Source: Chloroflexota bacterium
Lineage (GTDB): Bacteria > Chloroflexota > Anaerolineae > Anaerolineales > UBA11858
Assembly: GCA_016865865.1 (NCBI GenBank)
Contig: VGOC01000005.1
Span: 1,194-65,193, forward strand
Reading direction: 5' to 3'
Length of the DNA stretch: 64,000 nucleotides
Both the position numbers and the translations under genes were made by a program. Position 1 is the stretch's first letter. Each line of letters opens with the position of its first letter. Below the pieces are notes generated by a model. That model had not been told where the DNA came from and made no database searches. It saw only the letters and a list, made by a program, of their open reading frames with translations. This document shows, one piece after another, positions 12,030 to 63,424 of the stretch.

Positions 12030-12048
12030 GAATGCAGAGGTCAAAGAT

Positions 12049-32403: not shown

Positions 32404-34229
<1,826 letters not shown>

Positions 34230-48018: not shown

Positions 48019-49530
48019 GTGGACCTGAACTCAGAGCGTTTTTTCGATCGAAAATGGTTATTGTGGGTAGTCGTTGGTCTGGCTTTCGTCCTGGGCCTGG
48101 GGATTCGCGCTTACGACATCACAGATCCACCTTTCGACTTCCACGCCACTCGACAACTCCGTGCGGCTGTGATCGCTCGAGGTATGTATTACCAGGGTCT
48201 GGAGGACGCCCCCGAATGGCAGCGTCAACAAGCCGATATGGCCTGGCATGAAGAAGCGATCATCGAACCGCCGGTGATGGAACGCCTGGCGGCCTGGGGT
48301 TATCAGTTGGCTGGCAGTGAACAATTATGGATACCGCGTTCATTATCGGCGATATTCTGGTGTCTTGCGGGATTGGCGGTATGGCTCCTGGGGCGAGAGT
48401 TAAGCGCCGCTGATGGCGGAGTACCGGCGATATTCTACTTTCTCTTTCTGCCTTATAGCATCTACGCCACGCGGACTTTTCAGCCAGACCCTTTGATGGT
48501 GTGCCTGATCGCCTGGTCGTTATGGGCTGTCTCTCGCTGGCATCGGGAGCGGACGACGCGGATGGCGATTGTTGCCGGAGTTTTGGGCGGCCTGGCGATC
48601 TTCGTCAAGACCGTGGCGATCTTTTTCGTGGGGGGAGCTTTCATTGGCCTCATCCTCTTGGGCGCAGGTTTGGCCAAAGCCATCCGGGATAAGCAGGTCT
48701 GGCTGATGGGACTCTTGACCATATTGCCCACCAGCCTGTTCTACGTTTACGGATTGTGGATTGCAGGTTTTCTTCAGCGACAACTCAGCTACCGCTTTTT
48801 CCCGAGTTTATGGTGTGACCCTGCTTTTTATATCCGCTGGCAGGAAATGGCTACGAACATCTGCGGTTATGGGACGTTGTTGGCCGCCCTCGCTGCCCTG
48901 TTTCTGGTTCGGGATAGAGGCAAACGAGGGTTTCTCGCTGGCCTGTGGATCGGATATGGTCTGTACAGTATGACCTTTGCATATCATACCCTGACGCATG
49001 ATTACTACCAACTCCCGTTGATCCTTGTCATTAGTGTATCGCTCATTGCAGTGGCTGCTGAACTTTTGAAAGCCATTGCCGCGATCGAGAAAGGTCTCTG
49101 GGTGCGTCTTTTTATTGTCTTATTGCTCTTTGCCGGGGCTGCTTTCAAGATATGGGATGTGCGCGTAAACCTCATCCGGGATGACTACCGCGGCGAGGCG
49201 GCTTTTTGGGAAAAAGTCGGCGGCCTGATCGAACCTGGGGCGCGGGTGCTGGCGATGAGCCAGACGTATGGAAATGCGCTGAGTTATTACGGCTGGACGC
49301 CGAATGATTCCTGGGCCAGCGAAGGCGATATCAATTTGCGAGTATTAGCAGGCGCGTCTGCAGAAGATATCGAACAAAGCAGCTATGCCGCCATAGAACA
49401 TTACGATTATTTCGTGATCACGAAAGTTGGAGAGTTCGACGATACGCCTGAACTCAAAGAACTACTGTATAATAACTATACTGTGTTTGCGGAGGGGGAG
49501 GATTATATTATTTTCGACCTTAGACCGTGA
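48019..49530 (+). CDS. GT-C-like membrane glycosyltransferase, tandem paralog B (GTG start)
   Basis: Has FDFHATRQLRAAVIARGMYY and TFQPDPLM. A ggagg RBS precedes the GTG. The C-terminus ..YIIFDLRP resembles ..YIIYHLRP in paralog A. Confidence 0.62.
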   Translation: MDLNSERFFDRKWLLWVVVGLAFVLGLGIRAYDITDPPFDFHATRQLRAAVIARGMYYQGLEDAPEWQRQQADMAWHEEAIIEPPVMERLAAWGYQLAGSEQLWIPRSLSAIFWCLAGLAVWLLGRELSAADGGVPAIFYFLFLPYSIYATRTFQPDPLMVCLIAWSLWAVSRWHRERTTRMAIVAGVLGGLAIFVKTVAIFFVGGAFIGLILLGAGLAKAIRDKQVWLMGLLTILPTSLFYVYGLWIAGFLQRQLSYRFFPSLWCDPAFYIRWQEMATNICGYGTLLAALAALFLVRDRGKRGFLAGLWIGYGLYSMTFAYHTLTHDYYQLPLILVISVSLIAVAAELLKAIAAIEKGLWVRLFIVLLLFAGAAFKIWDVRVNLIRDDYRGEAAFWEKVGGLIEPGARVLAMSQTYGNALSYYGWTPNDSWASEGDINLRVLAGASAEDIEQSSYAAIEHYDYFVITKVGEFDDTPELKELLYNNYTVFAEGEDYIIFDLRP

Positions 49531-49548
49531 GGTTATTTGCCCTACGCG

Positions 49549-51471
49549 ATGAAACCACTCGTTTCGATTGTCACTCCCTCTTATAACCAGTCCCAATATC
49601 TGGAAGACACCATTCGCTCGGTTTTGGCCCAGGATTACCCCAATATCGAATATGTCATCGTAGATGGAGGTTCCACCGACGGCAGTGTAGAGATCATCCA
49701 GAAATACGCCCATCGTCTCTCCTGGTGGGTCTCGGAGCCGGATAAAGGCCAGGCGGACGCCATCAACAAAGGGCTGAGACGGGCTCGCGGTGAGATCGTA
49801 GCCTGGTTGAACTCTGACGATGTCTATTTCCCAGACGCCATCTCTCAAGCTATGGATGCTTTTCAAGCCCACCCCGAGGTGGGGATGGTGTTTGGCAACG
49901 CCATCTCGATGGATTCCCAGGGCTACCCCCTCCATAACCAGGCTTTCGGAGATTGGGGCCTGGATGAGTTGATGTGTTACAACATCATCTGCCAGCCGGC
50001 TGTTTTCATGCGCAAGGAAGCCCTCCAGCAGGCTGGATTTTTGGATCAGTCTTACCACTATTTGCTGGATCACCACCTCTGGTTGCGCATCTTTGACATG
50101 GCTGGCGCGAAGCATGTCCCCTCGATCTGGGCTGGCGCCAGGCATCACCTCGAAGCCAAGAACGTGGCCAAGGCCGCCGAGTTTAGCGCGGAAGTGTTCA
50201 GGATTCTCGATTGGATCCAAGAACAGCCATCCCTCGAGGCGCGCACGAAGAAACTCAAACGCCGCATCCTGGGCGGCGCCTACAATATCAGCGGTCGGTA
50301 TTTGCTCGAAGGGGGCTTGCCAGGCCCGGCCGTCAAAGATTACTGGCGGGCGACTTTCAAAGACCCTACCCTCCTCAAATTCTATTGGCACCGGATGATC
50401 TATGCCTACCTCAGTCTGATGGGTTGGAGCGGCACAGCCGAATGGTATTACTCGCTGATGACCCATTTCCGGCCCGACGTGGGTGAGGATCCCCGCCTGA
50501 AGACCTGGCCAGGCATAAAGCTAGATGGCAGGAGCACCCCCATCCTGATTACCGGTGTGCATCGTTCTGGCACTACCTGGGTTGGCAGAATGATCGCCGC
50601 CAGCAGCGATGTCATCTATTTGAGCGAACCACTCAATATCTGGCACCGGCCCGGGGTGATGCGCACCCCCGTCGAGTACTGGTATCAATATATCTGTGAG
50701 GAAAACGAAAAGGCCTTCCTTCACGCCCTGCAGGACACTTTGGAGTATCGTTATCACTTCGGCACAGAACTGTTTTCCATCCGCTCGGTCAAGGATGCCG
50801 GGCGTATGGTGCGCGACATGGGGCGCTTCCTCAAGGGCAACCTCTCCCATGCCCGCCCCTTGCTCAAAGACCCCTTCGCCGTGTTTTCTAGCCCCTGGTT
50901 TTCCAAACGCCTGGGGTGCAAGATCGTCATTGTGGTTCGTCACCCCGTCGCCTTCGTCAGCAGCCTCAAACGCCTGGGCTGGACCTTCGACTTCAAAAAT
51001 ATATTAGATCAGACCTTGTTGATGCGCGACCACTTATCTGCGTATGAACAGGAAATGGAAAGGATGTTGGATTTCCCGGAGGATATTATTGGACAGGGAA
51101 GCCTGCTGTGGCGCATGGTTTATGATGTCGTGGATCGCTATCAGGTCACTCATCCGGAGTTTGTGGTGGTGAGGCATGAAGATATTTCTCTTCGCCCCCT
51201 GGCGGGATACCAGCAAATGTACCAGACTTTGGGGTTATCTTTTACCCCGTGGGTGCGCCGTTCGATCATGAGATCATCAGAAGGAAGTAACCCCTCCGAG
51301 CAGCCGCGCCAAAAAGAATTTTCGACCCAATTGGATAGCCGGGCTAACCTGTTGAATTGGCAGCATCGCCTCACCAGGGACGAAGTTGCCCGGGTGAAGG
51401 AGCTGACTTCTGACATCGCCGGAAAATTCTACACCGATGAAGAGTGGCAGCAGTGGACAGGCAGCTCCTAG
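49549..51471 (+). CDS. Fusion protein: GT2 glycosyltransferase plus a C-terminal sulfotransferase domain
   Basis: The N-terminus has [22 protein letters not shown] and [11 protein letters not shown]. The C-terminal part (about 50540 onward) has [18 protein letters not shown] and [13 protein letters not shown]. Confidence 0.75.
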
Positions 51472-52265
51472 TATCGGTTGTCACCCCCTCTTTCAATCAG
51501 GCCAAATATCTCGAAGCGACCATTCGCTCGGTATTGGAGCAGGGTTACCCGCACATCGAATATATCATCATTGATGGCGGCTCGACTGATGGCAGCGTCG
51601 AGATCATCCGCAAGTATGGTAAGCGATTGGCCTGGTGGGTCTCGGAACCCGACCAGGGTCAGACTGCGGCCATTAATAGAGGTTTTGCCCATGCCAGCGG
51701 AGAGATCTTCGCCTGGCTGAATTCAGACGATACGTACAATCCCAACGCTGTAGCCGAGGCCGTCGCTTTCTTGAGTGCGCACCCCGAGGTTGGCCTGGTA
51801 TATAGCGACGCCGACTTCATCGACTCCAACGGAGGGGTTGTGGGAAAATTCAACGCTCGACAGACCAGTTATCGGCGTTTGCGCCGCGGCGGGGTATACA
51901 TCCCTCAGCAGGCCGCTTTCTGGCGGGCGGATTTGTGGCGTCAAGTCGGCCCGTTGGATCCAAGCTATTATTTCGCGATGGATTACGATTTGTGGGTGCG
52001 GCTGGCAAGGGTATCGGATATTCGATATTATCCCGGCCACACCTGGGCTAACTTCCGCTTGCACGACGACGCCAAGACCATCGCCGCCGATGAACGCTGC
52101 TGGCCAGAGATGCTGCGCATCCACCGCCGCGATGGCGGAAGCTGGTTCTCGTGGATCTACCTGCGTTACTTTGCCCGCCGCGCCCTCTCCCCGCTGATCA
52201 AATGGCGGTTGCGCCGTAAATTTCGCACTCGGGGAACATATCGTCCAACGCCCCAGGCGCTATGA
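51444..52265 (+). CDS. GT2 glycosyltransferase, close paralog of the N-terminal domain of the preceding fusion
   Basis: Has [22 protein letters not shown] and [11 protein letters not shown]. The start is uncertain (GTG at 51444 or 51453). Confidence 0.8.
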
Positions 52266-52733
52266 TATGGTGGGCACAGCAGCCCGGATGGCATGAAAGC
52301 CATGCGGATCGGTATTACAAACACTTCGATGAGCTATTGCCAGAAAATAACCACTTGGTAGTTGTCGTGATCTTCAAAATGCAGTTGGACAAAGCGCTTC
52401 GCGCAGATGATTTTCCCCGCATAGGCTCTGACAATTTCATTCGTTCGCATGAGCGCAAAATCACACTCTGCCCGTTGTGCGCTGACACTCACCACTCGCA
52501 GCGTAGACTCGGGGCCGCAGCCAATCACCTGCCTGCTGCGTGCGGCTTAGTCCAACTGGATTGATGTGGCGGCGCATAGGCTCCAGCTTCGGCGTTGGTT
52601 CTGACCGATACATCAATCCTTAATCGTTAGGTTGAGGTTGTCAACCGAGTTTTTAGTTAGGTTGCTTGGTATCGCAACCTTAAAAGGCTCAATTAGCAGA
52701 GAGAGACATCTCTCAAGGGGTATAATCCTATAC

Positions 52734-53360
52734 ATGAATATCACAGATTTATTCACTGACCAGAAAACGATAGCCAAAATACAAGTACGCCTGCCTGAGT
52801 TGTTTCACATTGCAGAAGTAGAGAGTTCGCGGGCTGGCAAGATTGGCATGGAAGTAGGATCTGCAAGAGAAAGAATCCTGATCGCGTTGCTGATCTACAA
52901 GTTTGGCGAAGCGAATGTTGAAACCGAAATACCGATAACGGAGCCAGAAGTGGATGTCAAAGTGTTTGGTCTGCCTATCTCAATCAAAACCATCACAGGG
53001 AGAAAGCTAAATGGAGTAAAACTCATCTGGACAGTTGACGCGGAACAAGCCCTCAAATTCAGCCAAGAGTATAACCCTCGCTGTGATATTCTTCTGGCCC
53101 AAATGAACTGAAATGACTGGGGGCGGTTTTTCTTCTTCCCAAAATCTGCCCAAATTGAAACATTGCATCGAATCGGCAGGCAAAACTATATCAAGTTACC
53201 AAAAGCAGGTACAAACCCGCGAGGTGTTGAAATTTCGGCAGAAGCGCTCGGACTTCTTGCGGGTCACTCTCAAAGCTTGAACATTCCGGTAAAATGGTAT
53301 CGAAAGCAAGTTGACTATGATCCCTATGAACGATGGTTAGAACTTTGGAAAAAGGACTGA
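52734..53360 (+). pseudogene. Type II restriction endonuclease-like gene interrupted by a single in-frame TGA (53109-53111)
   Basis: ORFs 52734..53111 and 53112..53360 are in the same frame with no other stop (...ILLAQMN*NDWGRFFFFPKSAQIETLHRIGRQ...). It sits directly upstream of a DNA methyltransferase. A TATAAT lies at 52721-52726. Confidence 0.55.
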
Positions 53361-53363
53361 GTA

Positions 53364-54260
53364 ATGAAAAAAGGTTCAAAAACCAGTAGCTTCGGTACGA
53401 CATCGCGGATAAGCCACGACTCTTCGCAGTATTACAATTCGAAGCTTTATTCAGAACTGCCAGGAAATAACGGTTCACTTCCAATCCCCGACAATCTGTT
53501 TCCGCCTGAATACGAGAACACCACCATTCTTGGTAGCTCGGAGAACATGAAAGAAATCCCAGATAACTCGTTGCATTTGATGATCACTTCACCCCCTTAC
53601 AACGTAACGAAAGAATACGATGAAGACCTTTCGCTCAAAGAATATTTACAACTACTAAGAAATGTATTCTCTGAGACTTATCGTGTTCTGGTTTATGGTG
53701 GTAGAGCTTGCATCAATGTGGCAAACTTAGGGCGTAAGCCCTACATACCACTATCAGACTATATTTCCCAGATCATGATAGAAATTGGCTATCTCATGCG
53801 TGGGGAAATTATCTGGTACAAAGGCGCAGGAGCAGGCATCTCAATGGCCTGGGGTAGCTGGCAATCTGCCGCCAATCCTGTATTGCGTGACACTCATGAA
53901 TACATCATGGTTTTTTCAAAAGGATCATTTTCCCGTAAAAAGCCAGAAGACAAAGAGAATACGATAACCAGAGATCAATTTATGGAATGGACGAAATCTG
54001 TCTGGACGATGAATCCAGAGTCGGCTAAAAAGGTTGGACATCCTGCCCCATTTCCCGTTGAATTACCTTATCGGTTAATTCAGCTTTACACTTACAAAGG
54101 AGATATTATTCTTGACCCGTTTATGGGTAGCGGCACTACAGCGATTGCGGCCTTGAAATCTGAACGTAAATACGTCGGTTATGATATTGACCCTGAATAC
54201 GTTAAATTGACCGAAGATAGAGTTGCACCCTATAAACTTCAAATGAGCTTGGGCTTATAA
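53364..54260 (+). CDS. Beta-class DNA N4-cytosine/N6-adenine methyltransferase (N6_N4_Mtase family)
   Basis: Motif IV LMITSPPYNV precedes motif I DIILDPFMGSGTTAIAA. Confidence 0.88.
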   Translation: MKKGSKTSSFGTTSRISHDSSQYYNSKLYSELPGNNGSLPIPDNLFPPEYENTTILGSSENMKEIPDNSLHLMITSPPYNVTKEYDEDLSLKEYLQLLRNVFSETYRVLVYGGRACINVANLGRKPYIPLSDYISQIMIEIGYLMRGEIIWYKGAGAGISMAWGSWQSAANPVLRDTHEYIMVFSKGSFSRKKPEDKENTITRDQFMEWTKSVWTMNPESAKKVGHPAPFPVELPYRLIQLYTYKGDIILDPFMGSGTTAIAALKSERKYVGYDIDPEYVKLTEDRVAPYKLQMSLGL

Positions 54261-54605
54261 GAAGCGCAGCCTAACAACCGCTTCCACCTGACCGCCTTCG
54301 GCGCGGGTATGCGTGCGCCATGAGGCAGCATAGGCTTTGGTTTACCGTGAGTCTTGCTCGCCCCGCTCGGCGGCTTATCCAGGTCGTTGGGTGGCTTGAA
54401 GGTTCGCAGCTTTGTGGTAGAAGTGACAGAAATGAAAACAAAATTGAACTCATTATCTGATTTACAGTACGGAATTTTAAGAGCCTTTGTTAGCCTTATC
54501 CTATCAGAAATCCAGTGCTCATTTTCAATTTTGGCGAAACTCCAGATTTAAAGTAACAACTCAGGCATCCCTCGCCCTGGATTGAAATCCTGGGCTGGAA
54601 AGCAA

Positions 54606-54704
54606 AGTCCGTTCAAACGGACTGGTAAATCAGCGTATTTCCAGTCGGATTTCATCCGACTTCGTTTCTCAGCCTGGGAATTCATTCTCAGTCGGTTGGC
54701 TGAG
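54606..54704 (+). other. Array of three short stem-loops in the leader of the 1240-aa gene
   Basis: agtccgtt-ca-aacggact (54606-54623), agtcggat-ttc-atccgact (54643-54661) and ctcagtc-ggtt-ggctgag (54687-54704). Confidence 0.5.
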
Positions 54705-54747
54705 TAGTAACGATTTAAAAATACATCCCGAATTCCAATTGGCTGAC

Positions 54748-57700
54748 ATGAACACCAATCACGAACGCCAGAAATGGGATCACTACTATGCTTCTCTTCC
54801 TTCCACGGATGAGGATGAGAATATCATCCGATTCCGGGAAGAGTTTACTAGCGTTGTTGCTGATCTGCTGCCCGAGGGCGGGTGGATTCTCGAAGCTGGC
54901 TGCGGAGGAGGGGAGCAGAGTCTGGCGTTGGCGAAGACGGGGAAATATCAACTGACGCTGCTGGATTTTTCAGCAGAGGCCCTCGAAAAGGCGCGTCTGG
55001 CCTTCGACCGTGAGGGGTTGCAGGCCGAATTCCTGCTCGAAGATGCATTCCGGCCCGGAAATGCGCGATTCGACCTGGTTTTCAACGCTGGGGTCCTGGA
55101 GCATTATTCCACCGACCAACAGGGTTCTCTGCTGCGCGGGATGGCTAGCCGCAGTGAGAAATATGTCCTGGCGCTGGCGCCCAATTTTCGAAACTACTGG
55201 TACTGGCTGTGGCGCGCCCACAAGACCAGCCAAAACCAGTGGCCTTTTGGCCGCGAAGTCCCCGCCCTCGATTTGAGCGGAGCCTTCGAGGCCGCCGGCA
55301 TGCGTTACCTGGGGAGCGCCTTCTTGGGCCAGAGTTGGACGGAAAGCTTCATCAGCGGCGTAGACGGCATGGCCGATGACTTGAAAGGGCTGCTGCTCCA
55401 GATTCACCGTGGGGGAATTTTGCCCGCCGCGCAGACCAGCTATCTCGTCGCGGCGCTGGGGGGCGTGGATGAGGTTTCTGCTCCGCCTGGCTGGGGCGAT
55501 CTCCCGGAGGCTGACCGAGCTCCTGCAATCGAAGCCTTGACCGCGGCGCTGACCGACGCCCTGGCTTTGCAGGTGGAGGCGCGCCGTGAAGCGCGAGTTG
55601 CGCGGGACGAATATCTGGCCCGGCTGGCGGATATGTCAACGCAACTGATGGAACAAAAGCGGGGTCATACTATCGGGCTGATGGAACGCGTTCAGGAGAT
55701 CGAGCGGCAGACTGCCGACGAACTGGTCGGAAAGATTCAGGAGATCGAACGCCGCTTCGACGAGCGCGTCCGCCAGATCGAGCAGCAGAGCGCAGACGAC
55801 CTGACCTGCAAAGTTCAGGAGATCGAGCGCCGCTTCGATGAGCGCGTCCACCAGATCGAGCAGGCACGCGCCAGCGACCTGGCCGAGCAGATAGGGGCCA
55901 TCGAGCGAGACGGCGCTGAACAACTCGTCGGGCGGCTTCGAGAGATCGAACGACGCAACGCCGAAGCACTCATCGAGAAGCTCAAGGAGATCGAGTATCA
56001 ACAGGTCTTCGACTACACCGGCCTGGTTCGGCAGATCGAACACGACCATACCGGCGTTCTGATCGGCAAAATTCGTGAGATCGAACATCTCCGGGCGCAG
56101 ATCGAAGCCCTTCATCAGCCTCCCACGCCCATCCTGAGTCAGCAGGTCAAGTCTTTCCTGATACGTATCTTCACAAAGCTGGGTCTGCTTTCCTATGCAA
56201 TCGAATTGAAAAAAAACCTGAAAAAAGCCCGTCATCTCTTCCGCAAAAAAATCCCTTCAGAAGCGTCGTATCAGCCGCCGATTTCCCTGGGACATCCCGC
56301 CATCCCACCAGAGAGAAGGGTGGTCATCCTGACTTATACGTTTTTCGATTTCGATGGGGGAAATATGTATTGTGGGGGGGCGGAGCGCTATGTTCTCGAG
56401 CTGGCGCGCTTGATACGGGAGTTGGGTTTTTTCCCGGAGTTGTATCAGTGCGGGAACGGCTATTGGGTGCGCTATTACCGCGATTTGCGGGTCACGGGGC
56501 TCGATGTGGGCGGGGAAGCAGAACGTCTGGCGGCGGAATATCGGAAGTTGCCGCATCAGCAGGCGTTGACGATCTTTTCGCCATTTTCTCTGGCTATCTC
56601 TGCCGGGGAGGGGCGCTCGGTGGGAATCAGTCACGGCGTCTTCTGGGATTATCCTGATTTCCAGGCTAATCGGCCAGCTATGCAGGCGGTGTGGGATTCT
56701 TGCCGCAATCTGGAGATCATCGTTTCCGTAGACACCAACACGATCAACTGGGTGCGGGCCAGCGCGGCGGGGTTGGCAGAGAAGTTCGTGTATATCCCTA
56801 ATTTTGTGGATGTGGATGTGTTCGAACCCGCTCCCCTGACCCCTCACCCCGCCAGGGAGGAGGATGCCAGGAGTGTGGGCGATAGAATCACCATTCTTTA
56901 TCCCCGGCGGTTGTACCGGCCGCGCGGTTTCTGGCTGGTTGCCGAAGTGCTGCCGAAGATATTGGAGCGTTACCCGCAGGTGGAGTTTTTCTTTGTCGGC
57001 AGGGCGGATAAACCTGAGGCGGATTATGTTTGCGAGTTGACCGTGTGTTATCCGGGGCGAGTGCGCTGGGAGATCTTGCCCCCAGAGGAGATGCCTCAGG
57101 CGTACCGGCAGGCTCATATCACGGTAGCGCCCACGCTGCACAGCGAGGGGACTTCGCTATCGTGTTTGGAGGCCATGGCCTCGGGAAACGCGGTGATTGC
57201 CACCAACGTGGGCGGGCTGCCCAACCTGATCCTGCCATATCACAACGGATTGTTGATTGATGCCTCGGCGGACGCGCTCGAAAATGCCCTGGTAGAGCTG
57301 ATCGAGAACCCAGCCCTGCGCCAGCAGATCGCGCAGCGCGGCCGCGAGGCGGCTGCTGCTTTCTCGATCGAACGCTGGCGCGCGCAGTGGCGAGAAATCC
57401 TGGCGCAGCGTCTGGTTGCTGGTGAAAGGGTAGATAGTGAATCCACGAAAGTGGCCTTCTTCCCGATCGCTCCCGGGATTCCTTGGGAAGGTATCAAGCA
57501 GCGCCCCCACCATTTAGCCATGCAGCTTGCCAGGGCGGGGATCGAGACATTTTGGGGCAACCCCACCCGGAGGCAGGCCAGCCCGCATCCGCTGCTGCAT
57601 ATCCTCGGCCCGCGCGAGGAGACCCATTTCAGCCGCCCGCTGATTTTCGTGTATTACCCCTTCACTTATAGAGCGATACATCAATATGATGATCCATTTG

Positions 57701-58470
57701 TTGTGTATGATGTTCTGGATGATCCCAGCATTCACGAAACCTCGGATCAGGCTTTGCCGGTAGGGCGCCGGGCAATTGATTATCATCGAAAATTGTTGGC
57801 CGAGGCCGATTTAGTGATCGCTTCATCGTCAGTGTTGGTCCGGCGTCTCGAGCCTCAGCGCCCGGATGTGCTCTTGATTCCGAATGGGGTTGATTTGGCG
57901 CACTTCCGCCCCGATGACCTTCGCGCACACGATAAGCAGGCTGACACAACAGGGAAGCCCCGCATCGGTTTTCATGGCGCGATTGCGGAATGGTTCGATG
58001 TGGATTTGGCCTGCGAAATCGCCAGATTGCGGCCTGACTATCAGTTCGAGTTTATCGGGCCTGCTTCGGTTGATACCCAGCAACTGAGACGCCTCCCGAA
58101 TGTGATCGTCCGAGATGCGGTGGCCTATGAAGAAATCCCCCGCCATATTGCCCGGTTCGACGTGGGCATCCTGCCTTTCCACCTCGATGCGTTGACCCAG
58201 GCAGTCCGACCGCTCAAGGTCTTAGAATATCTGGCGATGGGCAAACCCGTTGTGGCTGCGCCTCTGGAAGAGATCGAAGGCTGGCCTGGCGTTCTAACCG
58301 CCAGGGATCCCCAGGATTTTGCTGCACAGATTGACCATGCTCTGGCGATTCGAGACGCCATTTCGAGCGACGAACAAGTTCAGGATTTTGTCGTCTCCGC
58401 CTCCTGGCAAAAGACGACTCAACCGCTCATCGCTCTTCTCGATGAGGCTTTTCGAGTATCTTCTCAATAA
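54748..58470 (+). CDS. Multidomain protein: SAM methyltransferase, about 200 aa of coiled coil, a GT4 domain and a second GT1/GT4 (TuaH-like) domain
   Basis: MT motif I ILEAGCGGGEQS and FNAGVLEHY. A repetitive xxEIExx helical region lies at 55520-56115. GGAERYVLELARLI...EGTSLSCLEAMASGNAVIATNVGG marks the GT4 domain. The C-terminal GT-B domain has KQRPHHLAMQLARAG...LKVLEYLAMGKPVVA. Confidence 0.8.
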   Translation: MNTNHERQKWDHYYASLPSTDEDENIIRFREEFTSVVADLLPEGGWILEAGCGGGEQSLALAKTGKYQLTLLDFSAEALEKARLAFDREGLQAEFLLEDAFRPGNARFDLVFNAGVLEHYSTDQQGSLLRGMASRSEKYVLALAPNFRNYWYWLWRAHKTSQNQWPFGREVPALDLSGAFEAAGMRYLGSAFLGQSWTESFISGVDGMADDLKGLLLQIHRGGILPAAQTSYLVAALGGVDEVSAPPGWGDLPEADRAPAIEALTAALTDALALQVEARREARVARDEYLARLADMSTQLMEQKRGHTIGLMERVQEIERQTADELVGKIQEIERRFDERVRQIEQQSADDLTCKVQEIERRFDERVHQIEQARASDLAEQIGAIERDGAEQLVGRLREIERRNAEALIEKLKEIEYQQVFDYTGLVRQIEHDHTGVLIGKIREIEHLRAQIEALHQPPTPILSQQVKSFLIRIFTKLGLLSYAIELKKNLKKARHLFRKKIPSEASYQPPISLGHPAIPPERRVVILTYTFFDFDGGNMYCGGAERYVLELARLIRELGFFPELYQCGNGYWVRYYRDLRVTGLDVGGEAERLAAEYRKLPHQQALTIFSPFSLAISAGEGRSVGISHGVFWDYPDFQANRPAMQAVWDSCRNLEIIVSVDTNTINWVRASAAGLAEKFVYIPNFVDVDVFEPAPLTPHPAREEDARSVGDRITILYPRRLYRPRGFWLVAEVLPKILERYPQVEFFFVGRADKPEADYVCELTVCYPGRVRWEILPPEEMPQAYRQAHITVAPTLHSEGTSLSCLEAMASGNAVIATNVGGLPNLILPYHNGLLIDASADALENALVELIENPALRQQIAQRGREAAAAFSIERWRAQWREILAQRLVAGERVDSESTKVAFFPIAPGIPWEGIKQRPHHLAMQLARAGIETFWGNPTRRQASPHPLLHILGPREETHFSRPLIFVYYPFTYRAIHQYDDPFVVYDVLDDPSIHETSDQALPVGRRAIDYHRKLLAEADLVIASSSVLVRRLEPQRPDVLLIPNGVDLAHFRPDDLRAHDKQADTTGKPRIGFHGAIAEWFDVDLACEIARLRPDYQFEFIGPASVDTQQLRRLPNVIVRDAVAYEEIPRHIARFDVGILPFHLDALTQAVRPLKVLEYLAMGKPVVAAPLEEIEGWPGVLTARDPQDFAAQIDHALAIRDAISSDEQVQDFVVSASWQKTTQPLIALLDEAFRVSSQ

Positions 58471-58554: not shown

Positions 58555-60696
58555 ATGAATCTTGACGGGTGGAAGAACAATATTGGTTTTTGGTTGGGTA
58601 CCGCAGGGGTCATTTTTAGTTTAATGCTCAGCATCTGGTTTTCGGCTGCCACATTCCTCGATCCCTTGCCTCCTTATGTCTTCTATGACCATGATCTGCG
58701 CATCGCAATCCTCTATCTGGTCATTTTCTCGATTGTGGGATTCTTGTCCCTGATCCAGAAACCTTGCTGGCTGGGGACATTAACCATCGTCTCGAGTGGG
58801 GGAATGATTCTGGTCGCTGCAAAGACGCCTTCTCTGGCCGTCAGCCTTCTCTTGCTTTTGTGGTTTCTCTGGTCGAGCTGGTGTATTGGGGAGGCGGCCC
58901 TTCGATGGCTGGTCAACCCCGAGGATTTATCTGCCGGCGAAGGGGCGGCGTTGGCGATCGTTTTGGGGTGGGGCGTGCTGGTTGTGTTGACTCTATTCCT
59001 GGGGGTGATCGGTCTTTATCAGCGCTGGCTATTTTACGCGCTTTTCTCGTTGATCACGATCTGGGGCTTATGGAAACACAAAATGAAATTCAGGCAGCGG
59101 CGCTCCAACCGTCATCCAGGTTCCTGGCCTGGCGCGCTCGTATCGAGCCTGTTGGCGGTCGTCGCCGCAGGGAGTTTTTTCTGGGCGCTGGCTCCTGCCG
59201 TTCGCTATGATTCCCTCAGCTATCATTTGGCGGTCCCTCTCCGCTATCTCGAGGCCGGGCGGATGCTCGAACTGCCCGAGTCCTTCCAGATGTATTTTGC
59301 CCATTATGGCGAGATGCTCTACCTGATTGCCTTCGCACTGGGCGATCAGCCTTTGCCGGGGTTGATTAATTTCTCCGCCGGGATTCTGCTCACCATTCAG
59401 ACATATTTCCTCGGCAAACGCCTGGCAAATCGAACACTGGGATGGATTGCAGCAGTGATTTTGTATTCGCTGCCAATCATCGGCATCGAGTCGGCGACAA
59501 CGTATGTAGACATATTCATCGCTCTGTTCGTTACTTCAGCGCTCCATGCTGCGTTGTTGTGGTCGCAGGGAAAGGGGGGTCGGTGGCTGTTTTTGACAGG
59601 GATTTTCTCCGGCCTTGCGCTGGGGACGAAGTTGAACGCCTTCCTTTTGTTGCTTCCCTTCTGGCTTTGGACATTCACCGCAGAGACGCGAAGTTCGAGG
59701 AGCAAGACAGTAATAAATATTCCGCGCTCTCTGCATCTCCGCGGTGAAGCGCTATTGTCGCTAGGTTTGCCCGCGCTGTTGTTGTGGGCGCCCTGGCTGG
59801 CCCGCGACTGGTTCTGGACTGGTAATCCGATCTTTCCGAATCTGAATGCCATCTTTCGAAGCCCCGAGTGGTTCGACAGGCATTTTTTCGTTTTCCAACC
59901 CACCCTGAACACTCTCCAGGGGATCCTCTTTTTCCCCTGGTTGGGGGTCGCGGACTCTCACCGATATTATCACGAAGCTCCCGGGGCGGTTCTGGGCGCG
60001 TTGCCGATGCTCAGCCTGCCCTGGTTCTATGGCTGGCGAATACGGCGCTCCCAAACGCTGTCGCTTTTTTTCGCTTTTTGTGCGGCGATGGCCTTGCTCT
60101 TCGGCTTTGGCGCAAATGCCCGATACCTGATGCCGCTTTTTCCATTGCTCAGCGTCCTGGCAGCTTCGAATGTCGAATCCTTTGGCGAGATTCTATTCCG
60201 GAAGCAAAAGCACTGGGGCGCGCCCCTCGTTTTCCTGGCGTTGCTGTACGTATTTTCGACGCGCCTGGCGTTTACGGCGCGCTGGTGGGAGATCCCCGAA
60301 AGGTACCCGATTCGAATCTGGCTGGGACAAGAATCCCAGGAACATTTTGTGGAGCGTGTCTTGCCAGTCTATGGGGCGTTCGAGTTTTTAAATCAACAAG
60401 GGCGCTTCAAGGTGTTCTCTGTGGGGAATGAACTTCGGCTTTACACAGCTTCGGAGATATATGGCATCCTCTTCTCCAAAGAAGCCCATCATGCCCTTCA
60501 CGATGCCACCACCCCAGATGAATTGGCCCAAAACCTTGCCAGGGAGGGCTATGATTACCTATTGATCTATCCGCCAGAACAGGAACACCGCCCAGAGATT
60601 TACACCTCCCCGAGTTTGCACGAAGCCTTTTTTGAGCGCTATACGCGCTTAGAATATAGCCAGAAAAATGTTTATCTCTACCATTTTGTGCCATAA
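58555..60696 (+). CDS. GT-C-like polytopic membrane protein (713 aa)
   Basis: More than 12 hydrophobic spans. RYDSLSYHLAVPLRYLEAGRM is a typical first periplasmic loop of ArnT/PMT_2-like proteins. There is a soluble C-terminal domain. Confidence 0.55.
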   Translation: MNLDGWKNNIGFWLGTAGVIFSLMLSIWFSAATFLDPLPPYVFYDHDLRIAILYLVIFSIVGFLSLIQKPCWLGTLTIVSSGGMILVAAKTPSLAVSLLLLLWFLWSSWCIGEAALRWLVNPEDLSAGEGAALAIVLGWGVLVVLTLFLGVIGLYQRWLFYALFSLITIWGLWKHKMKFRQRRSNRHPGSWPGALVSSLLAVVAAGSFFWALAPAVRYDSLSYHLAVPLRYLEAGRMLELPESFQMYFAHYGEMLYLIAFALGDQPLPGLINFSAGILLTIQTYFLGKRLANRTLGWIAAVILYSLPIIGIESATTYVDIFIALFVTSALHAALLWSQGKGGRWLFLTGIFSGLALGTKLNAFLLLLPFWLWTFTAETRSSRSKTVINIPRSLHLRGEALLSLGLPALLLWAPWLARDWFWTGNPIFPNLNAIFRSPEWFDRHFFVFQPTLNTLQGILFFPWLGVADSHRYYHEAPGAVLGALPMLSLPWFYGWRIRRSQTLSLFFAFCAAMALLFGFGANARYLMPLFPLLSVLAASNVESFGEILFRKQKHWGAPLVFLALLYVFSTRLAFTARWWEIPERYPIRIWLGQESQEHFVERVLPVYGAFEFLNQQGRFKVFSVGNELRLYTASEIYGILFSKEAHHALHDATTPDELAQNLAREGYDYLLIYPPEQEHRPEIYTSPSLHEAFFERYTRLEYSQKNVYLYHFVP

Positions 60697-61465: not shown

Positions 61466-61535
61466 TTTCACATTCCTCTTGCTGTATGAATTTCCGCATT
61501 TGCAGATTATCTGCATCATACTTTGGAATCGATGT

Positions 61536-61678: not shown

Positions 61679-62506
61679 GTGAAGCAGTTTTCAGTGAACT
61701 TTTACGACTCATCCAGCGTAGTTCACCCCTTCGTTGAGGAAATCCAGGCGTTGATGGCTTATCGAGGGTTGGTTGTGCAGTTTGTGGCCCGGTCGATCAA
61801 GACCCGCTACAAGCGTTCGATCCTGGGTGTGGCTTGGACCATGCTCAACCCTTTGTTGACTATGATCGCGCTCACGGTGGTATTCTCTCAGCTCTTTCGG
61901 ATTCAAATCGAAAACTTTCCTGTTTACGTGCTGAGCGGCCAATTAGTGTGGATCTTCTTCTCAACGACGACCAGCAGCGCCATGGGAGAGATGATCTGGA
62001 GCAGCGAATTGATCAAACGTATCTACTTGCCCAAATCGGTCTTTGCTGTTGCTGCGGTTGGGACAGGATTGGTCAATTTTCTCTTTTCCTTGCTGCCGTT
62101 GTCAGTCATTGCTTTGGTGTTGGGCGTCGAACTACGCTCGGCCTTATTCACCTGGCTGCTGACGATGTTGCTTCTATCATTCTTCTCCTTGGGGTTGGGT
62201 CTGCTGCTCTCGACGGCGACTGTCTATTTTGCGGATATGTTGCCGGTGTACAACGTGCTTTTGACGATCTGGCTTTATCTGACGCCGGTGATTTACCCTA
62301 TGGAGATCGTCCCCACACAGTGGCATTGGTTGTTCCGCATCAACCCGGTTTACTATTATGTAGAAGCTTTCCGTGAGCCTTTGTTGGCTGGCAGTATCCC
62401 GGGCTGGGGAACCTGGCTCCCGGCAACCGGATTTGCGTTGGTGACTTTTCTGATCGGGTGGTTTGTTTTTACATCCAGATCAAGCGAATACGCCTATCGG
62501 ATATAG
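61679..62506 (+). CDS. wzm: ABC-2 type polysaccharide export permease (second copy, GTG start)
   Basis: Has LMAYRGLVVQFVARSIKTRYKRSILGVAWTMLNP and six hydrophobic spans. Confidence 0.85.
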   Translation: MKQFSVNFYDSSSVVHPFVEEIQALMAYRGLVVQFVARSIKTRYKRSILGVAWTMLNPLLTMIALTVVFSQLFRIQIENFPVYVLSGQLVWIFFSTTTSSAMGEMIWSSELIKRIYLPKSVFAVAAVGTGLVNFLFSLLPLSVIALVLGVELRSALFTWLLTMLLLSFFSLGLGLLLSTATVYFADMLPVYNVLLTIWLYLTPVIYPMEIVPTQWHWLFRINPVYYYVEAFREPLLAGSIPGWGTWLPATGFALVTFLIGWFVFTSRSSEYAYRI

Positions 62507-62656
62507 ATCAACTACCCCCCTCTCTGTCCCCCCATTTTCGCATGCGTGTGCAGCAAGCACCCCCGTATATGCCGCCCCGCCCCCTCATTGATGAATTTTT
62601 TCAGTGAACTCAGGCAATCGATGGCGAAAATGGGGAGATGAAAGGTGGGGGTGTTC

Positions 62657-63424
62657 ATGATGCAAACCAAACCCGACTCGTTTATCAACAGTGAAGATTC
62701 CGTGATTCGCGTGGAGGGCGTTTCTGTGCGGTACCGCGTTCTCCGCGAGCAACTCTCGGGGATCAAGGAGTATGCGATCCGTTGGCTGCAACGACGCCTG
62801 CAATATCGTGACTTCTGGGCTTTGAACGATATCAGCATCGAGGTTCGCCGGGGGGAGTTTTTCGGGATCGTCGGTCGCAATGGCGCGGGGAAGAGCACTC
62901 TCCTCAAGGTGATGGCCCGGGTGATCAGGCCAACCCTGGGGAGGGTAGTCATGCTTGGTAGAACTGCGCCCCTCCTCGAGCTGGGCGCGGGATTCCATCC
63001 CGAATTGACCGGTCGTGAAAATATCTTCCTCAATGGCGCTTTGTTGGGATTATCTCACACGGAAATCGTTCAGCGTTTCGAGGAGATCGTTGCTTTTTCC
63101 GAAATCGTCGAGTTCATCGAAGCGCCGCTGCGGACGTATTCCACCGGTATGGTGGCGCGCCTGGGGTTTGCAGTGGCGACCAGCGTGAGGCCAGATATCA
63201 TGCTGGTGGATGAGGTCCTCTCCGTCGGCGATGCGCAGTTTCAGGAGAAGTGCCTGGTTCGGATGCGCGCCTTTCAGGAACAGGGCGCGACGATTGTGTT
63301 GGTCACGCACAGCATGGAGAGGGTGGTCGCATTGTGTGAACGGGCGATCTGGTTGGATGGGGGAAAGGTTGCAGCCCAGGGGGAAGCCTCGGCAGTTGTC
63401 AATCAATACTCACGAACGCTATAG
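62657..63424 (+). CDS. wzt: Polysaccharide ABC exporter ATPase without a C-terminal binding domain (second copy)
   Basis: Has [19 protein letters not shown] and IMLVDEVLSVGD. It ends about 20 aa after the NBD. Confidence 0.85.
   Translation: MMQTKPDSFINSEDSVIRVEGVSVRYRVLREQLSGIKEYAIRWLQRRLQYRDFWALNDISIEVRRGEFFGIVGRNGAGKSTLLKVMARVIRPTLGRVVMLGRTAPLLELGAGFHPELTGRENIFLNGALLGLSHTEIVQRFEEIVAFSEIVEFIEAPLRTYSTGMVARLGFAVATSVRPDIMLVDEVLSVGDAQFQEKCLVRMRAFQEQGATIVLVTHSMERVVALCERAIWLDGGKVAAQGEASAVVNQYSRTL

What the first reader, a model, noticed from the sequence alone, without database searches (positions are those of the whole stretch)
54748..58470. Single 1240-aa protein combining a methyltransferase, a long coiled coil and two GT-B glycosyltransferase domains: a candidate terminator-ruler-polymerase
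In E. coli O8/O9a, the terminator WbdD (a methyltransferase, with or without a kinase, plus a coiled coil) sets O-antigen length by positioning its catalytic head at a fixed distance from the membrane-bound dual-GT4 polymerase WbdA. In Klebsiella O12 and Raoultella, WbbB fuses a Kdo-transferase terminator, a coiled coil and two GTs.

This protein has the WbbB-like all-in-one layout, but with a WbdD(O8)-like SAM methyltransferase head. It sits next to a Wzm/Wzt pair. The only Wzt with a cap-binding-type domain is 50 kb away at 5173.
Basis: inference. Interest (0 to 1): 0.75.

Follow-up and report, generated by a model that had tools for sequence, protein, structure and literature searches.

The report
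Glycan polymerase with built-in methyl-capping stalk
One 1240-residue bacterial enzyme joins a methyltransferase, a long helical stalk and two sugar-adding domains, a layout already known from Klebsiella and Geobacillus for building surface sugar chains and capping them at a set length; this is an unstudied Chloroflexota version with an unusual stalk and no cap-reading transporter.

Summary
ORF 54748-58470 (+) encodes 1240 aa with five parts:
- a class I SAM methyltransferase (aa 1-245);
- a proline-free helical stalk (aa 259-455);
- a basic amphipathic segment (aa 463-501);
- two GT-B/GT4 glycosyltransferase domains (aa ~524-888 and ~902-1239).

The terminator-ruler-polymerase reading is plausible but unproven, and it is not new in kind. 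K. pneumoniae O7 ORF6 (methyltransferase-kinase, coiled coil, two GTs), O12 WbbB and Geobacillus WsaE are characterised precedents.

Evidence in favour:
- The gene order GT2, this gene, GT-C, Wzm, Wzt is conserved in all Anaerolineales orthologue loci that have enough flank.
- The catalytic domains keep a constant length, while the stalk varies from 69 to 155 aa. This window carries a recent 78-nt (26-aa) tandem duplication in the stalk.
- In other phyla the same methyltransferase head family sits directly beside Wzt proteins that carry the cap-binding Wzt_C domain.

Differences and evidence against:
- The cognate Wzt is short and has no CBM in every orthologue.
- The stalk is built from 15/11-residue repeats (period 3.7), not heptads.
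- The head has no specific homology to WbdD.
- The oligomeric state, the cap and any ruler effect are all untested.

Verdict: a new variant of a known kind, of moderate interest.

The parts
54748..58470 (+). Whole gene: 1240-aa methyltransferase, stalk and GT4-GT4 fusion protein
   Evidence: ORF and translation. Pfam and NCBIfam. About 27 full-length orthologues at 38-65% identity, found only in Anaerolineales/Anaerolineae MAGs.
54748..55482 (+). Methyltransferase head, aa 1-245: class I SAM-dependent methyltransferase with an intact ExGxGxG motif (E49, G51, G53, G55) plus invariant D73, D99 and N113-H119
   Evidence: Pfam. AF2 pLDDT above 90. Foldseek matches class I methyltransferases, including the sugar O-methyltransferases AtmM and RebM. 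Invariant columns. The head-plus-neck module defines a family of 153 clusters (50% identity) at E <= 1e-30.
55522..56112 (+). Helical stalk, aa 259-455: a conserved neck helix (259-305), then an array of 15- and 11-residue repeats (306-456)
   Evidence: AF2 helices 259-348 and 356-455. The 'IE' motif recurs at spacings of 15/11/15/11/15/15. Hydrophobic period 3.70-3.75, reached by 0 of 500 shuffles, with no 3.5 signal. No Pro in aa 306-456 of this protein, and none in 25 of 27 orthologues. Length varies from 69 to 155 aa among orthologues.
55697..55863 (+). 78-nt (26-aa = 15+11) tandem duplication inside the stalk: 2.1 copies, 85% matches
   Evidence: Tandem Repeats Finder. The segment is missing in most orthologues (68% gaps at aa 347-356) and coincides with the break in the AF2 helix.
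56008..56115 (+). Membrane-proximal stalk segment, aa 421-456 (FDYTGLVRQIEHDHTGVLIGKIREIEHLRAQIEALH): the most conserved stretch of the whole protein
   Evidence: Mean majority-residue fraction 0.80, against 0.74 for the methyltransferase, 0.75 and 0.70 for the GTs, and 0.42 for the variable stalk.
56134..56250 (+). Basic amphipathic helices, aa 463-501 (net charge +10): candidate peripheral membrane anchor between the stalk and the GTs
   Evidence: Helices in both AF2 models. muH 0.50 for aa 463-478. No TM-grade hydrophobic stretch (maximum KD19 1.26). Net charge +5 to +15 over the aligned aa 452-512 region in all 27 orthologues. WbdD(O8) and distant relatives carry an analogous basic 'SRxWR' helix in the same position.
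56317..57411 (+). GT module 1, aa ~524-888: GT-B fold, GT4 retaining type, with invariant EX7E (E800...E808)
   Evidence: Pfam Glyco_transf_4 and Glyco_trans_1_4. AF2. Foldseek matches MshA, PimA, PglA and HepE. PDB phmmer hit to PimA at 7.6e-14. Invariant columns.
57451..58464 (+). GT module 2, aa ~902-1239: GT-B fold, TuaH-like GT4
   Evidence: NCBIfam TuaH match at aa 984-1177, E 2.8e-24. Second Glyco_trans_1_4 stretch. AF2 pLDDT about 90. Invariant QRPH, YDxLDD and KxxEY motifs.
58555..60696 (+). 713-aa GT-C (PMT/PMT_2 family) membrane glycosyltransferase. It always follows the fusion gene in orthologue loci, and overlaps it in L001 and L003.
   Evidence: Pfam. Synteny in every orthologue locus with enough flank.
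61679..62506 (+). Wzm: ABC-2 permease
   Evidence: Pfam ABC2_membrane, E 2.3e-23. 70-84% identical in orthologue loci.
62645..63424 (+). [quoted passage not shown]
   Evidence: Pfam finds ABC_tran but no Wzt_C. The tail after the NBD is 0-4 aa in all orthologue loci that reach this gene.
48019..52265 (+). Conserved upstream block: PMT_2 GT-C (48019-49530), GT2 fused to a sulfotransferase (49537-51471) and GT2 (51444-52265)
   Evidence: Pfam. Same order upstream of the fusion gene in orthologue loci, except that L003/L004/L008 and L015 have GT2 before the PMT_2 gene.

Best explanation
The protein is a cytoplasmic-face, peripherally membrane-bound assembly enzyme for an ABC-transporter-exported surface glycan of an Anaerolineales (Chloroflexota) bacterium.

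**Proposed mechanism** (domain content is shown; function is inferred):
1. The basic amphipathic helices (aa 463-501) hold the two GT4 modules at the membrane.
2. There the GT4 modules alternately extend a polyprenol-linked chain.
3. The stalk (aa 259-455, about 29 nm if fully extended) self-associates into a parallel, non-heptad bundle built from hendecad and pentadecad repeats. This holds the methyltransferase head away from the membrane.
4. Only chains long enough to reach the head are O-methylated at the non-reducing end, and the methyl cap stops elongation.
5. Wzm/Wzt then exports the chain. Because this Wzt has no CBM, export would not proof-read the cap.
6. The GT-C enzymes, and a Wzy_C-type ligase encoded downstream in orthologue loci, would modify and attach the polymer outside the membrane.

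Stalk length, and therefore chain length, would be tuned in evolution by gain or loss of 11-, 15- or 26-residue units.
For: **Shown**
- Domain content and order.
- Catalytic motifs of all three enzyme modules are invariant across 26 sequences.
- The stalk is helical and proline-free. Its hydrophobic periodicity of 3.70-3.75 was reached by 0 of 500 shuffles.
- Among orthologues the methyltransferase (245 aa) and the two GT modules (about 364 and about 340 aa) are constant in length. The repeat array ranges from 69 to 155 aa. In this genome it has grown through an 85%-identical 78-nt tandem duplication.
- A basic amphipathic segment between stalk and GTs is conserved, and there is no TM helix.
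- The order GT2, fusion gene, GT-C, Wzm, Wzt is conserved in every orthologue locus with enough flank.
- The same head family (50-54% identity) lies immediately downstream of Wzt proteins with a Pfam-verified Wzt_C cap-binding domain in at least 8 loci from Planctomycetota, Proteobacteria and Anaerolineaceae. This ties the head family to cap chemistry.

**Established knowledge**
- WbdD, WbbB and K. pneumoniae O7 ORF6 place the terminator at the distal end of a coiled-coil ruler (PMC11231755, PMC3482155).
- The N-terminal methyltransferase of WsaE makes the terminating 2-O-methyl cap (PMC2943079).
Against: - The cognate Wzt lacks a CBM here and in all orthologues. The literature states that all characterised terminated systems have one (PMC11231755, PMC11127046).
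- There is no specific homology to WbdD, and no PDB sequence match to any characterised terminator.
- The AF2 monomer model breaks the stalk at aa 349-355, which would be compatible with a fold-back hairpin. However, that break falls on a lineage-specific insertion with 68% alignment gaps.
- The stalk has only moderate confidence (pLDDT 50-78).
- Oligomeric state, polymerising activity, the methyl acceptor and any chain-length effect are all untested.
- The cluster holds four further GTs and several GT-Cs, so these two GT4 modules need not be the polymerase.
Confidence: 0.55

Rival explanations
1. Decorating enzyme. The two GT4 modules and the methyltransferase build or modify a defined unit, for example by methylating internal sugars of every repeat as in mycobacterial methylmannose polysaccharide synthesis. 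The helical region would serve only to oligomerise the protein or to scaffold a complex. Chain length would be set by the balance between export and polymerisation, as in CBM-less Wzm/Wzt systems.
For: - The cognate Wzt is CBM-less in all orthologues. This is the pattern of non-capped systems.
- The window is rich in other methyltransferases and sulfotransferases, which points to heavily decorated glycans.
- Foldseek hits for the GT pair include the methylmannose-polysaccharide mannosyltransferase 7qsg.
- WsaE methylation in vitro was independent of chain length (PMC2943079).
Against: - An oligomerisation module has no need for about 200 residues, nor for unit-wise length variation while every catalytic domain stays fixed in length.
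- The methyltransferase sits at the end of the stalk opposite to the membrane-binding segment and the GTs, which makes co-operation on each repeat awkward.
- Homologous heads pair with cap-reading Wzt_C transporters elsewhere.
Confidence: 0.25
2. Fold-back stalk. The helical region is an intramolecular antiparallel hairpin or helical bundle that packs the methyltransferase next to the GTs. There would then be no spatial separation and no ruler, although the methyltransferase could still cap chains.
For: - AF2 places a low-confidence break at aa 349-355, close to the midpoint of aa 259-455.
- pTM is 0.55 for the N-terminal half.
- Indels among orthologues cluster in the central part of the array, which a hairpin could tolerate.
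Against: - The break coincides with a 26-aa lineage-specific duplication that most orthologues lack (68% gaps). It therefore cannot be a conserved turn.
- There is no Pro and no conserved Gly turn motif anywhere in the stalk.
- Single-unit differences of 11, 14 or 15 residues between close orthologues lie on one side of the array.
- Monomer AF2 runs commonly fold homo-oligomeric coiled coils back on themselves (own knowledge).
Confidence: 0.12
3. Primer or adaptor synthase. The two GT4 modules add a fixed non-repeating linker to the lipid carrier, in the manner of WbdB/WbdC or WsaC/WsaD. The polymer itself would be made by the neighbouring GT2, GT4 or GT-C enzymes, or by a Wzy-type route (the Wzy_C and weak Wzz-like genes downstream in orthologue loci).
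For: - Other GTs are conserved around the gene: two GT2 upstream and two GT4 downstream in orthologue loci.
- A 352-aa protein with a sub-threshold Wzz hit (E 4e-4) lies next to a Wzy_C protein.
Against: - In every characterised case, the GT modules fused to the coiled-coil protein are polymerase modules (PMC11231755).
- Wzy_C also marks ligases and O-oligosaccharyltransferases, such as the predicted WsaB (PMC2943079).
- The Wzz hit is below Pfam's cut-off (20.9 against 25.5 bits).
Confidence: 0.08

Closest known systems
Klebsiella pneumoniae O7 ORF6 (methyltransferase-kinase, CBM, coiled coil, two GT2 modules; PMC11231755)
   Same: A single polypeptide with an N-terminal SAM methyltransferase terminator, a central helical spacer and two C-terminal GT modules, encoded in a wzm/wzt cluster. 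Both belong to the same functional class of terminator, ruler and polymerase.
   Different: - O7 ORF6 has an added kinase and an Ig-like CBM, and its product carries a methyl-phosphate cap. This protein has neither domain.
- The GTs here are GT-B/GT4, not GT2.
- The head probably belongs to a different methyltransferase subfamily. Its glycine motif is at aa 49-55, against G91/G93 in ORF6. ORF6's closest structure, CgnL (7pd7), is not among this head's top 50 Foldseek hits.
- The stalk here is non-heptad.
WbbB of K. pneumoniae O12 / Raoultella terrigena
   Same: The all-in-one order: terminator, then coiled coil, then two polymerising GTs (as described in PMC11231755).
   Different: - The WbbB terminator is a GT99 beta-Kdo transferase, not a methyltransferase.
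- Its Wzt carries a CBM that reads the Kdo cap. The Wzt here has no CBM.
- No WbbB chain appeared in the PDB sequence searches.
WbdD(O8) plus WbdA of E. coli O8 / K. pneumoniae O5
   Same: - A methyltransferase-only head, a helical stalk, then a basic amphipathic helix (sequence read from E. coli IAI1).
- The polymerase is made of GT4 modules.
- Methyl capping of a homopolymer is the presumed analogue.
   Different: - In O8 these are two separate proteins. Here they are fused.
- There is no detectable specific homology. BLASTP gives E 1.8 for head plus stalk. hhalign gives 45% probability, limited to the SAM-binding half. Against WbdA only a generic GT4 motif matches (26% over 127 aa).
- The WbdD(O8) stalk is about 90 aa and heptad-like (period 3.45). 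This stalk is about 200 aa with period 3.70-3.75.
- The O8 gene annotated wzt is 1215 nt (about 404 aa), consistent with the C-terminal extension described for terminated systems in PMC11231755. It was not scanned here.
WsaE of Geobacillus stearothermophilus NRS 2004/3a (S-layer glycan; PMC2943079)
   Same: - An N-terminal O-methyltransferase plus two GT domains in one protein.
- Encoded next to wzm/wzt in a monoderm bacterium.
- The methyl cap is proposed to terminate the chain.
- The cluster also holds a predicted oligosaccharyl:protein transferase (WsaB). Orthologue loci here encode a Wzy_C-family protein downstream.
   Different: [quoted passage not shown]
- Its GTs are rhamnosyltransferases.
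- The sequence relationship could not be tested because the WsaE sequence was not retrievable with these tools.

Membership tests
Coiled-coil terminator/polymerase proteins of capped, ABC-transporter-dependent glycan assembly (WbdD / WbbB / KpO7-ORF6 class) | A chain-terminating catalytic module at the end of the protein distal from the membrane and the GTs | tested here: met
   An intact class I SAM methyltransferase occupies aa 1-245, at the end of the stalk opposite to the amphipathic segment and the GTs. Its terminating activity is not shown.
Coiled-coil terminator/polymerase proteins of capped, ABC-transporter-dependent glycan assembly (WbdD / WbbB / KpO7-ORF6 class) | A long helical, amphipathically periodic spacer between the terminator and the polymerase or membrane end | tested here: met
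   AF2 helices span aa 259-455. The periodicity of 3.70-3.75 was reached by 0 of 500 shuffles, and there is no Pro in aa 306-456. The repeats are 15/11-residue units, not heptads.
Coiled-coil terminator/polymerase proteins of capped, ABC-transporter-dependent glycan assembly (WbdD / WbbB / KpO7-ORF6 class) | The spacer forms an extended parallel homo-oligomer (dimer or trimer) that acts as a ruler | not testable with these tools
   Only monomer AF2 was available. That model has a low-confidence break at aa 349-355, on a lineage-specific insertion.
Coiled-coil terminator/polymerase proteins of capped, ABC-transporter-dependent glycan assembly (WbdD / WbbB / KpO7-ORF6 class) | A membrane-association element proximal to the polymerase | tested here: met
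   Conserved basic amphipathic helices at aa 463-501 (net +10), with no TM segment. This is a prediction only.
Coiled-coil terminator/polymerase proteins of capped, ABC-transporter-dependent glycan assembly (WbdD / WbbB / KpO7-ORF6 class) | Genetic linkage to wzm/wzt | tested here: met
   Wzm and Wzt lie 3.2 kb downstream. The order is conserved in all orthologue loci with enough flank.
Coiled-coil terminator/polymerase proteins of capped, ABC-transporter-dependent glycan assembly (WbdD / WbbB / KpO7-ORF6 class) | [quoted passage not shown] | tested here: not met
   The Wzt at 62645-63424 is 259 aa with no Wzt_C domain. The tail after the NBD is 0-4 aa in all orthologue loci. More distant relatives of the head family do have an adjacent Wzt with Wzt_C.
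Coiled-coil terminator/polymerase proteins of capped, ABC-transporter-dependent glycan assembly (WbdD / WbbB / KpO7-ORF6 class) | The glycan carries a non-reducing terminal cap and has a modal chain length that depends on stalk length | not testable with these tools
   This needs NMR or MS of the polymer, together with genetics.
WbdD family (sequence homology) | Detectable homology of the terminator domain to WbdD O8 or O9a | tested here: not met
   BLASTP against WbdD(O8) from E. coli IAI1 gives E 1.8. hhalign gives 45% probability over 104 columns of the SAM-binding half only. No WbdD chain is hit in the PDB at E <= 10, and none is among the top 50 Foldseek hits.
CAZy GT4-type retaining GT-B glycosyltransferases (both GT modules) | A GT-B two-Rossmann fold, Glycos_transf_1-type C-terminal domain and EX7E motif | tested here: met
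   Pfam. AF2 pTM 0.82. Foldseek matches MshA, PimA, PglA and HepE at E down to 5e-18. E800...E808 is invariant in module 1. Module 2 is TuaH-like and keeps only the second Glu (E1160).
Class I SAM-dependent methyltransferases | A Rossmann-like fold with a glycine-rich motif I and acidic residues after strands beta2 and beta4 | tested here: met
   Pfam Methyltransf_25/11/12. Foldseek E about 1e-10 to many class I methyltransferases. E49, G51, G53, G55, D73 and D99 are invariant.
WsaE-type methyl-rhamnosyltransferases of S-layer glycan clusters | Sequence homology to WsaE, and dTDP-rhamnose-dependent GT modules | not tested
   The WsaE sequence is not in any collection reachable here. Cluster-name look-ups for 10 head-family representatives returned only 'glycosyltransferase'.

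The most novel reading that the evidence does not exclude
The Anaerolineales orthologue group may be a capped-glycan system that has dispensed with cap proof-reading by the transporter, since its Wzt has no CBM. It would measure chain length with a right-handed-type coiled coil built from hendecad and pentadecad repeats, whose length is reset in nature by in-frame 11-, 15- or 26-residue duplications. The repeat array ranges from 69 to 155 residues across orthologues, and this genome carries a fresh 26-residue duplication. If so, the orthologue series is a ready-made natural test of the molecular-ruler hypothesis, in a phylum generally regarded as monoderm and lacking LPS. It would also show that capping and cap recognition are separable.
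Probability: 0.3. Interest if true: 0.6.

Novelty: new variant of a known kind. Interest (0 to 1): 0.4.

Why it matters
Coiled-coil rulers that set polysaccharide length have been characterised in only a handful of enterobacterial O-antigen systems.

If this enzyme works as proposed, it would extend the principle to Chloroflexota and to a methyltransferase head family that has no name and no characterised member. That family comprises at least 153 clusters at 50% identity, spread across several phyla.

It would also uncouple chain capping from recognition of the cap by a transporter CBM. In addition, the orthologue series has fixed catalytic domains and stalks of graded length, which suits a test of whether stalk length dictates chain length.

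If it does not work this way, it is simply one more multidomain glycan-decorating enzyme in a very large glycan gene cluster.

Tried and rejected
1. **PDB sequence searches.** The whole protein and aa 1-505 hit only generic GT4 enzymes and class I methyltransferases. No WbdD, WbbB or WbdA chain appeared.
2. **Foldseek on both models.** Again only generic class I methyltransferases and GT4 enzymes.
3. **Anchoring the head family to a named enzyme.** Ten head-family representatives were looked up for source names. All were 'glycosyltransferase' or unnamed. The WsaE and K. pneumoniae O7 ORF6 sequences could not be obtained.
4. **Papers not held.** Hagelueken 2015, Williams 2017, Whitfield 2020 and Mann 2019. 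Statements about them rest on the citing papers PMC11231755, PMC11127046 and PMC3482155, or on my own knowledge.
5. **BLAST with the CBM tail of the window's other Wzt (5173-6459).** It found nothing in the related loci. Tail length plus Pfam was used instead.
6. **A second coiled-coil terminator in the window.** The two Capsule_synth proteins (6390-8081 and 39518-41173) were checked. None was found.
7. **Promoter and terminator scan upstream of the gene.** Promoter-like sites occurred at the level expected by chance. No repeats were found in the 488-bp upstream spacer.
8. **Fold-back hairpin reading of the AF2 break.** Considered and down-weighted, because the break falls on a lineage-specific insertion.

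Full report
**1. The observation**

The + strand carries one uninterrupted ORF, 54739 (TTG) / 54748 (ATG) to 58470, which gives 1240 aa from the ATG.

Pfam finds class I methyltransferase models at aa 47-133. It finds a GT4 N-terminal domain at aa 543-690 and Glycos_transf_1-type domains in two stretches, the best at aa 715-854. NCBIfam adds a TuaH-like match at aa 984-1177. Nothing matches aa 250-540.

AlphaFold2 was run on the two halves with 26 orthologues as the alignment:
- The methyltransferase domain is confident (pLDDT above 90).
- Helices span aa 259-348 and 356-455, followed by two short helices at 463-477 and 481-500.
- The C-terminal half forms two GT-B domains, at about aa 524-888 and 902-1239 (mean pLDDT 86, pTM 0.82).

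Foldseek matches the head to generic class I methyltransferases, including the sugar O-methyltransferases AtmM and RebM. It matches the GT pair to retaining GT4 enzymes (MshA, PimA, PglA, HepE, ManT).

**2.

*(a) The stalk is not a heptad coiled coil.* An 'IE' motif recurs at spacings of 15/11/15/11/15/15 residues. The hydrophobic pattern is 3-4-4-4 and 3-4-4, that is, pentadecads and hendecads. The hydrophobic power spectrum of aa 306-456 peaks at 3.70-3.75 residues (power 136 against 52 +/- 15 for shuffle maxima; 0 of 500 shuffles reach it). There is essentially no 3.5 signal (power 5). By the same measure, E. coli WbdD(O8) and a distant Anaerolineaceae relative (L046) have heptad-like stalks, at 3.45 and 3.50. 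Repeats of this type are associated with right-handed or nearly straight bundles (own knowledge).

*(b) The stalk is the only length-variable part.* Across 27 full-length orthologues:

| Segment | Length (aa) |
|---|---|
| Methyltransferase | 241-249 |
| GT module 1 | 363-381 |
| GT module 2 | 332-355 |
| Repeat array | 69-155 |

The array length changes in steps that fit 11, 15 and 26 residues. In this window a 78-nt (26-aa) tandem duplication, 85% identical at the DNA level, lies at 55697-55863.

*(c) The AF2 helix break falls on that duplication.* The break at aa 349-355 lies inside this lineage-specific insertion, where 68% of orthologue cells are gaps. It is best read as an alignment-depth artefact and not as a conserved turn. 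There is no Pro in aa 306-456 of this protein, and none in 25 of 27 orthologues.

*(d) The membrane-proximal end of the stalk is the most conserved stretch of the protein.* For aa 421-456 the majority-residue fraction is 0.80, against 0.70-0.75 for the catalytic domains. This suggests a docking or hinge site.

*(e) A basic amphipathic segment lies between the stalk and GT module 1.* Amino acids 463-501 carry a net charge of +10. Over the aligned region aa 452-512 the net charge is +5 to +15 in all orthologues, and there is no TM-grade hydrophobic stretch. WbdD(O8) and distant relatives carry a different but analogous basic helix ('SRxWR...') at the same place.

*(f) The catalytic motifs are intact.* The motifs of the methyltransferase (E49/G51/G53/G55, D73, D99), of GT module 1 (EX7E, E800...E808) and of GT module 2 (QRPH, YDxLDD, KxxEY) are invariant.

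**3. Context**

The window is one 64-kb glycan super-cluster. It holds nucleotide-sugar genes, two NeuB-type synthases, three CMP-transferases, PAPS synthesis, several sulfotransferases and methyltransferases, four PMT_2-type GT-C proteins and two Wzm/Wzt pairs.

Around the focal gene the order is:
1. PMT_2 (48019-49530)
2. GT2 fused to a sulfotransferase (49537-51471)
3. GT2 (51444-52265)
4. a 100-aa ORF
5. an insertion: ThaI-type restriction fragment plus DNA methylase
6. the focal gene
7. a 713-aa GT-C (58555-60696)
8. an insertion: PIN toxin module on the minus strand
9. Wzm (61679-62506)
10. short Wzt (62645-63424)

Contigs from the same genome continue with a GT4 gene. In orthologue loci the same order holds without the two insertions, although in L003/L004/L008 and L015 the GT2 precedes the PMT_2 gene. 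Those loci continue with GT4, GT4, a 352-aa protein with a sub-threshold Wzz hit, and a Wzy_C protein.

Full-length orthologues (52-65% identity) occur only in Anaerolineales/Anaerolineae MAGs among 185,579 species representatives. The organism is therefore a Chloroflexota bacterium. That phylum is generally regarded as monoderm and lacking LPS (own knowledge). The product is then more likely a wall- or protein-linked glycan than an O antigen. This point is inference.

**4. The transporter question**

The adjacent Wzt has no Wzt_C domain. In every orthologue locus that reaches this gene, the tail after the nucleotide-binding domain is 0-4 aa.

The methyltransferase head plus neck (aa 5-285) defines a discrete family. 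It has 153 clusters at E <= 1e-30 among 1.84 billion representatives, in proteins of 125-2144 aa (many of the short ones are fragments) with GT2 or GT4 partners.

In relatives outside the orthologue group that have a Wzt within 10 kb, the Wzt usually lies immediately upstream on the same strand and carries a Pfam-verified Wzt_C domain. This was verified in L021, L046, L050, L057, L061, L065, L072 and L074. It is inferred from tail length in L077, whose Wzt lies at the same position and has the same tail length as that of L074. The hosts are Planctomycetota, Proteobacteria and Anaerolineaceae. Exceptions with a short Wzt are two Firmicutes loci (L039, L042) and L069. L055 has a long non-CBM fusion.

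The head family is thus tied to cap-reading transporters elsewhere. This supports a capping role for the family. The Anaerolineales GT4-GT4 group, however, lacks that checkpoint, and the literature states that all characterised terminated systems have the CBM (PMC11231755, PMC11127046).

**5. Comparison with known systems**

- K. pneumoniae O7 ORF6 is a characterised protein with methyltransferase-kinase, CBM, coiled coil and two GT2 modules. The same paper describes the coiled-coil terminator as a widespread hallmark (PMC11231755).
- Geobacillus WsaE is a methyltransferase plus two rhamnosyltransferases whose methyltransferase makes the terminating 2-O-methyl cap (PMC2943079).

To test 'WbdD(O8)-like' directly, I retrieved the O8 cluster of E. 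coli IAI1:
- BLASTP of head plus stalk against WbdD(O8) gives nothing (E 1.8).
- hhalign of the orthologue profile gives 45% probability over the SAM-binding half only.
- The GT pair shares only a generic GT4 motif with WbdA(O8).
- PDB searches never retrieve WbdD O9a.

The protein works like the WbdD, WbbB and ORF6 class in layout. It is not a sequence-level member of the WbdD family.

**6. Mechanism and confidence**

Best explanation, confidence about 0.55:
1. The protein is peripherally membrane-bound through aa 463-501.
2. The GT4 pair elongates a lipid-linked glycan at the membrane.
3. A parallel 11/15-repeat stalk, about 29 nm long if extended, holds the methyltransferase away from the membrane.
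4. Chains that reach the head are O-methyl-capped, and elongation stops.
5. A Wzm/Wzt transporter without a CBM exports the chain, with no cap proof-reading.

*Shown:* the domains, their order, conservation, stalk variability and synteny.

*Inferred:* the oligomeric state, membrane binding, polymerisation, capping and the ruler effect.

Rival explanations:

| Rival | Confidence |
|---|---|
| Decorating enzyme with an oligomerising helix | 0.25 |
| Fold-back stalk with no spatial separation | 0.12 |
| Adaptor synthase rather than polymerase | 0.08 |

**7. Verdict**

The feature is real. What is new:
- the combination of a methyltransferase-only head from an uncharacterised family, fused to a GT4 pair;
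- the non-heptad stalk that evolves by unit duplication;
- the phylum;
- the consistent absence of the transporter CBM.

I rate it a new variant of a known kind, with moderate interest (0.4).

Noticed in passing
window 52632-54260 (+): A truncated ThaI-type restriction endonuclease (159 aa, matching profile positions 1-120 of 203) and an N4/N6 DNA methyltransferase (298 aa). They lie in a low-GC patch (0.47) inserted between the conserved GT2/100-aa ORF and the fusion gene. The orthologue loci lack this insertion.
   Followed up: partly
window 60748-61519 (-): A PIN_3-domain toxin (60748-61242) and an adjacent small ORF, which together look like a toxin-antitoxin pair. They are inserted on the opposite strand between the GT-C gene and wzm. 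In orthologue loci the GT-C and wzm genes abut.
   Followed up: partly
window 4234-8081 (+), with 12019-13131, 16620-17483, 35886-37775 and 39518-41173: A second ABC-transporter system. It comprises Wzm (4234-5139), Wzt with a Wzt_C cap-binding domain (5173-6459) and an adjacent 563-aa Capsule_synth (KpsC/KpsS-like) protein. There is a second Capsule_synth protein at 39518, plus two NeuB-type synthases and three CMP-sugar synthetases. This suggests a separate glycan capped with a Kdo or nonulosonic acid. A simple composition scan found no coiled coil in the Capsule_synth proteins.
   Followed up: partly
window 32502-34229; 8074-9078; 26981-28024; 40974-42071; 49537-51471: A fused ATP-sulfurylase/APS-kinase (PAPS synthesis) and at least four sulfotransferase domains, one of them fused to a GT2. 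The cluster probably makes sulfated glycans.
   Followed up: no
window 56008-56115 (aa 421-456 of the fusion protein): The membrane-proximal 36 residues of the stalk (FDYTGLVRQIEHDHTGVLIGKIREIEHLRAQIEALH) are more conserved than any catalytic domain (0.80 against 0.70-0.75). AF2 confidence dips at aa 422-432. This may be a hinge or a partner-docking site.
   Followed up: partly
window 54606-54661: Two similar terminator-like hairpins on opposite strands (AGTCCGTTTGAACGGACT and AGTCGGATTTCATCCGACT). They lie in the 488-bp spacer just upstream of the fusion gene. Terminator-like sites in 52200-54800 number 6, against 2.3 +/- 1.5 expected.
   Followed up: no
L001 19888-22388; L003 19814-22290 (orthologue loci, beyond the window's end): Downstream of Wzt and two GT4 genes, orthologue clusters encode a 352-aa protein with a sub-threshold Wzz (chain-length determinant) hit (E 4e-4) and a 472-480-aa Wzy_C protein of the ligase / O-oligosaccharyltransferase type.
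   Followed up: partly
L022 7695-13942 (Anaerolinea thermolimosa IMO-1): A cultured Anaerolinea encodes the amphipathic-helix plus GT4-GT4 part alone (762 aa, 43% identity to aa 462-1231), with no methyltransferase or stalk. It lies directly after Wzm and a Wzt carrying Wzt_C, and is followed by a 556-aa multi-TM protein. This is a split or head-less version of the system in an isolate that could be studied.
   Followed up: partly
window 21212-23440 (+), 29026-30603 (-), 37768-39354, 46409-47914, 48019-49530, 58555-60696: An unusually high density of large polytopic membrane proteins. Four are PMT_2-type GT-C enzymes, and two are Pfam-less multi-TM proteins of 742 and 525 aa. This implies extensive extracytoplasmic glycan modification.
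   Followed up: no
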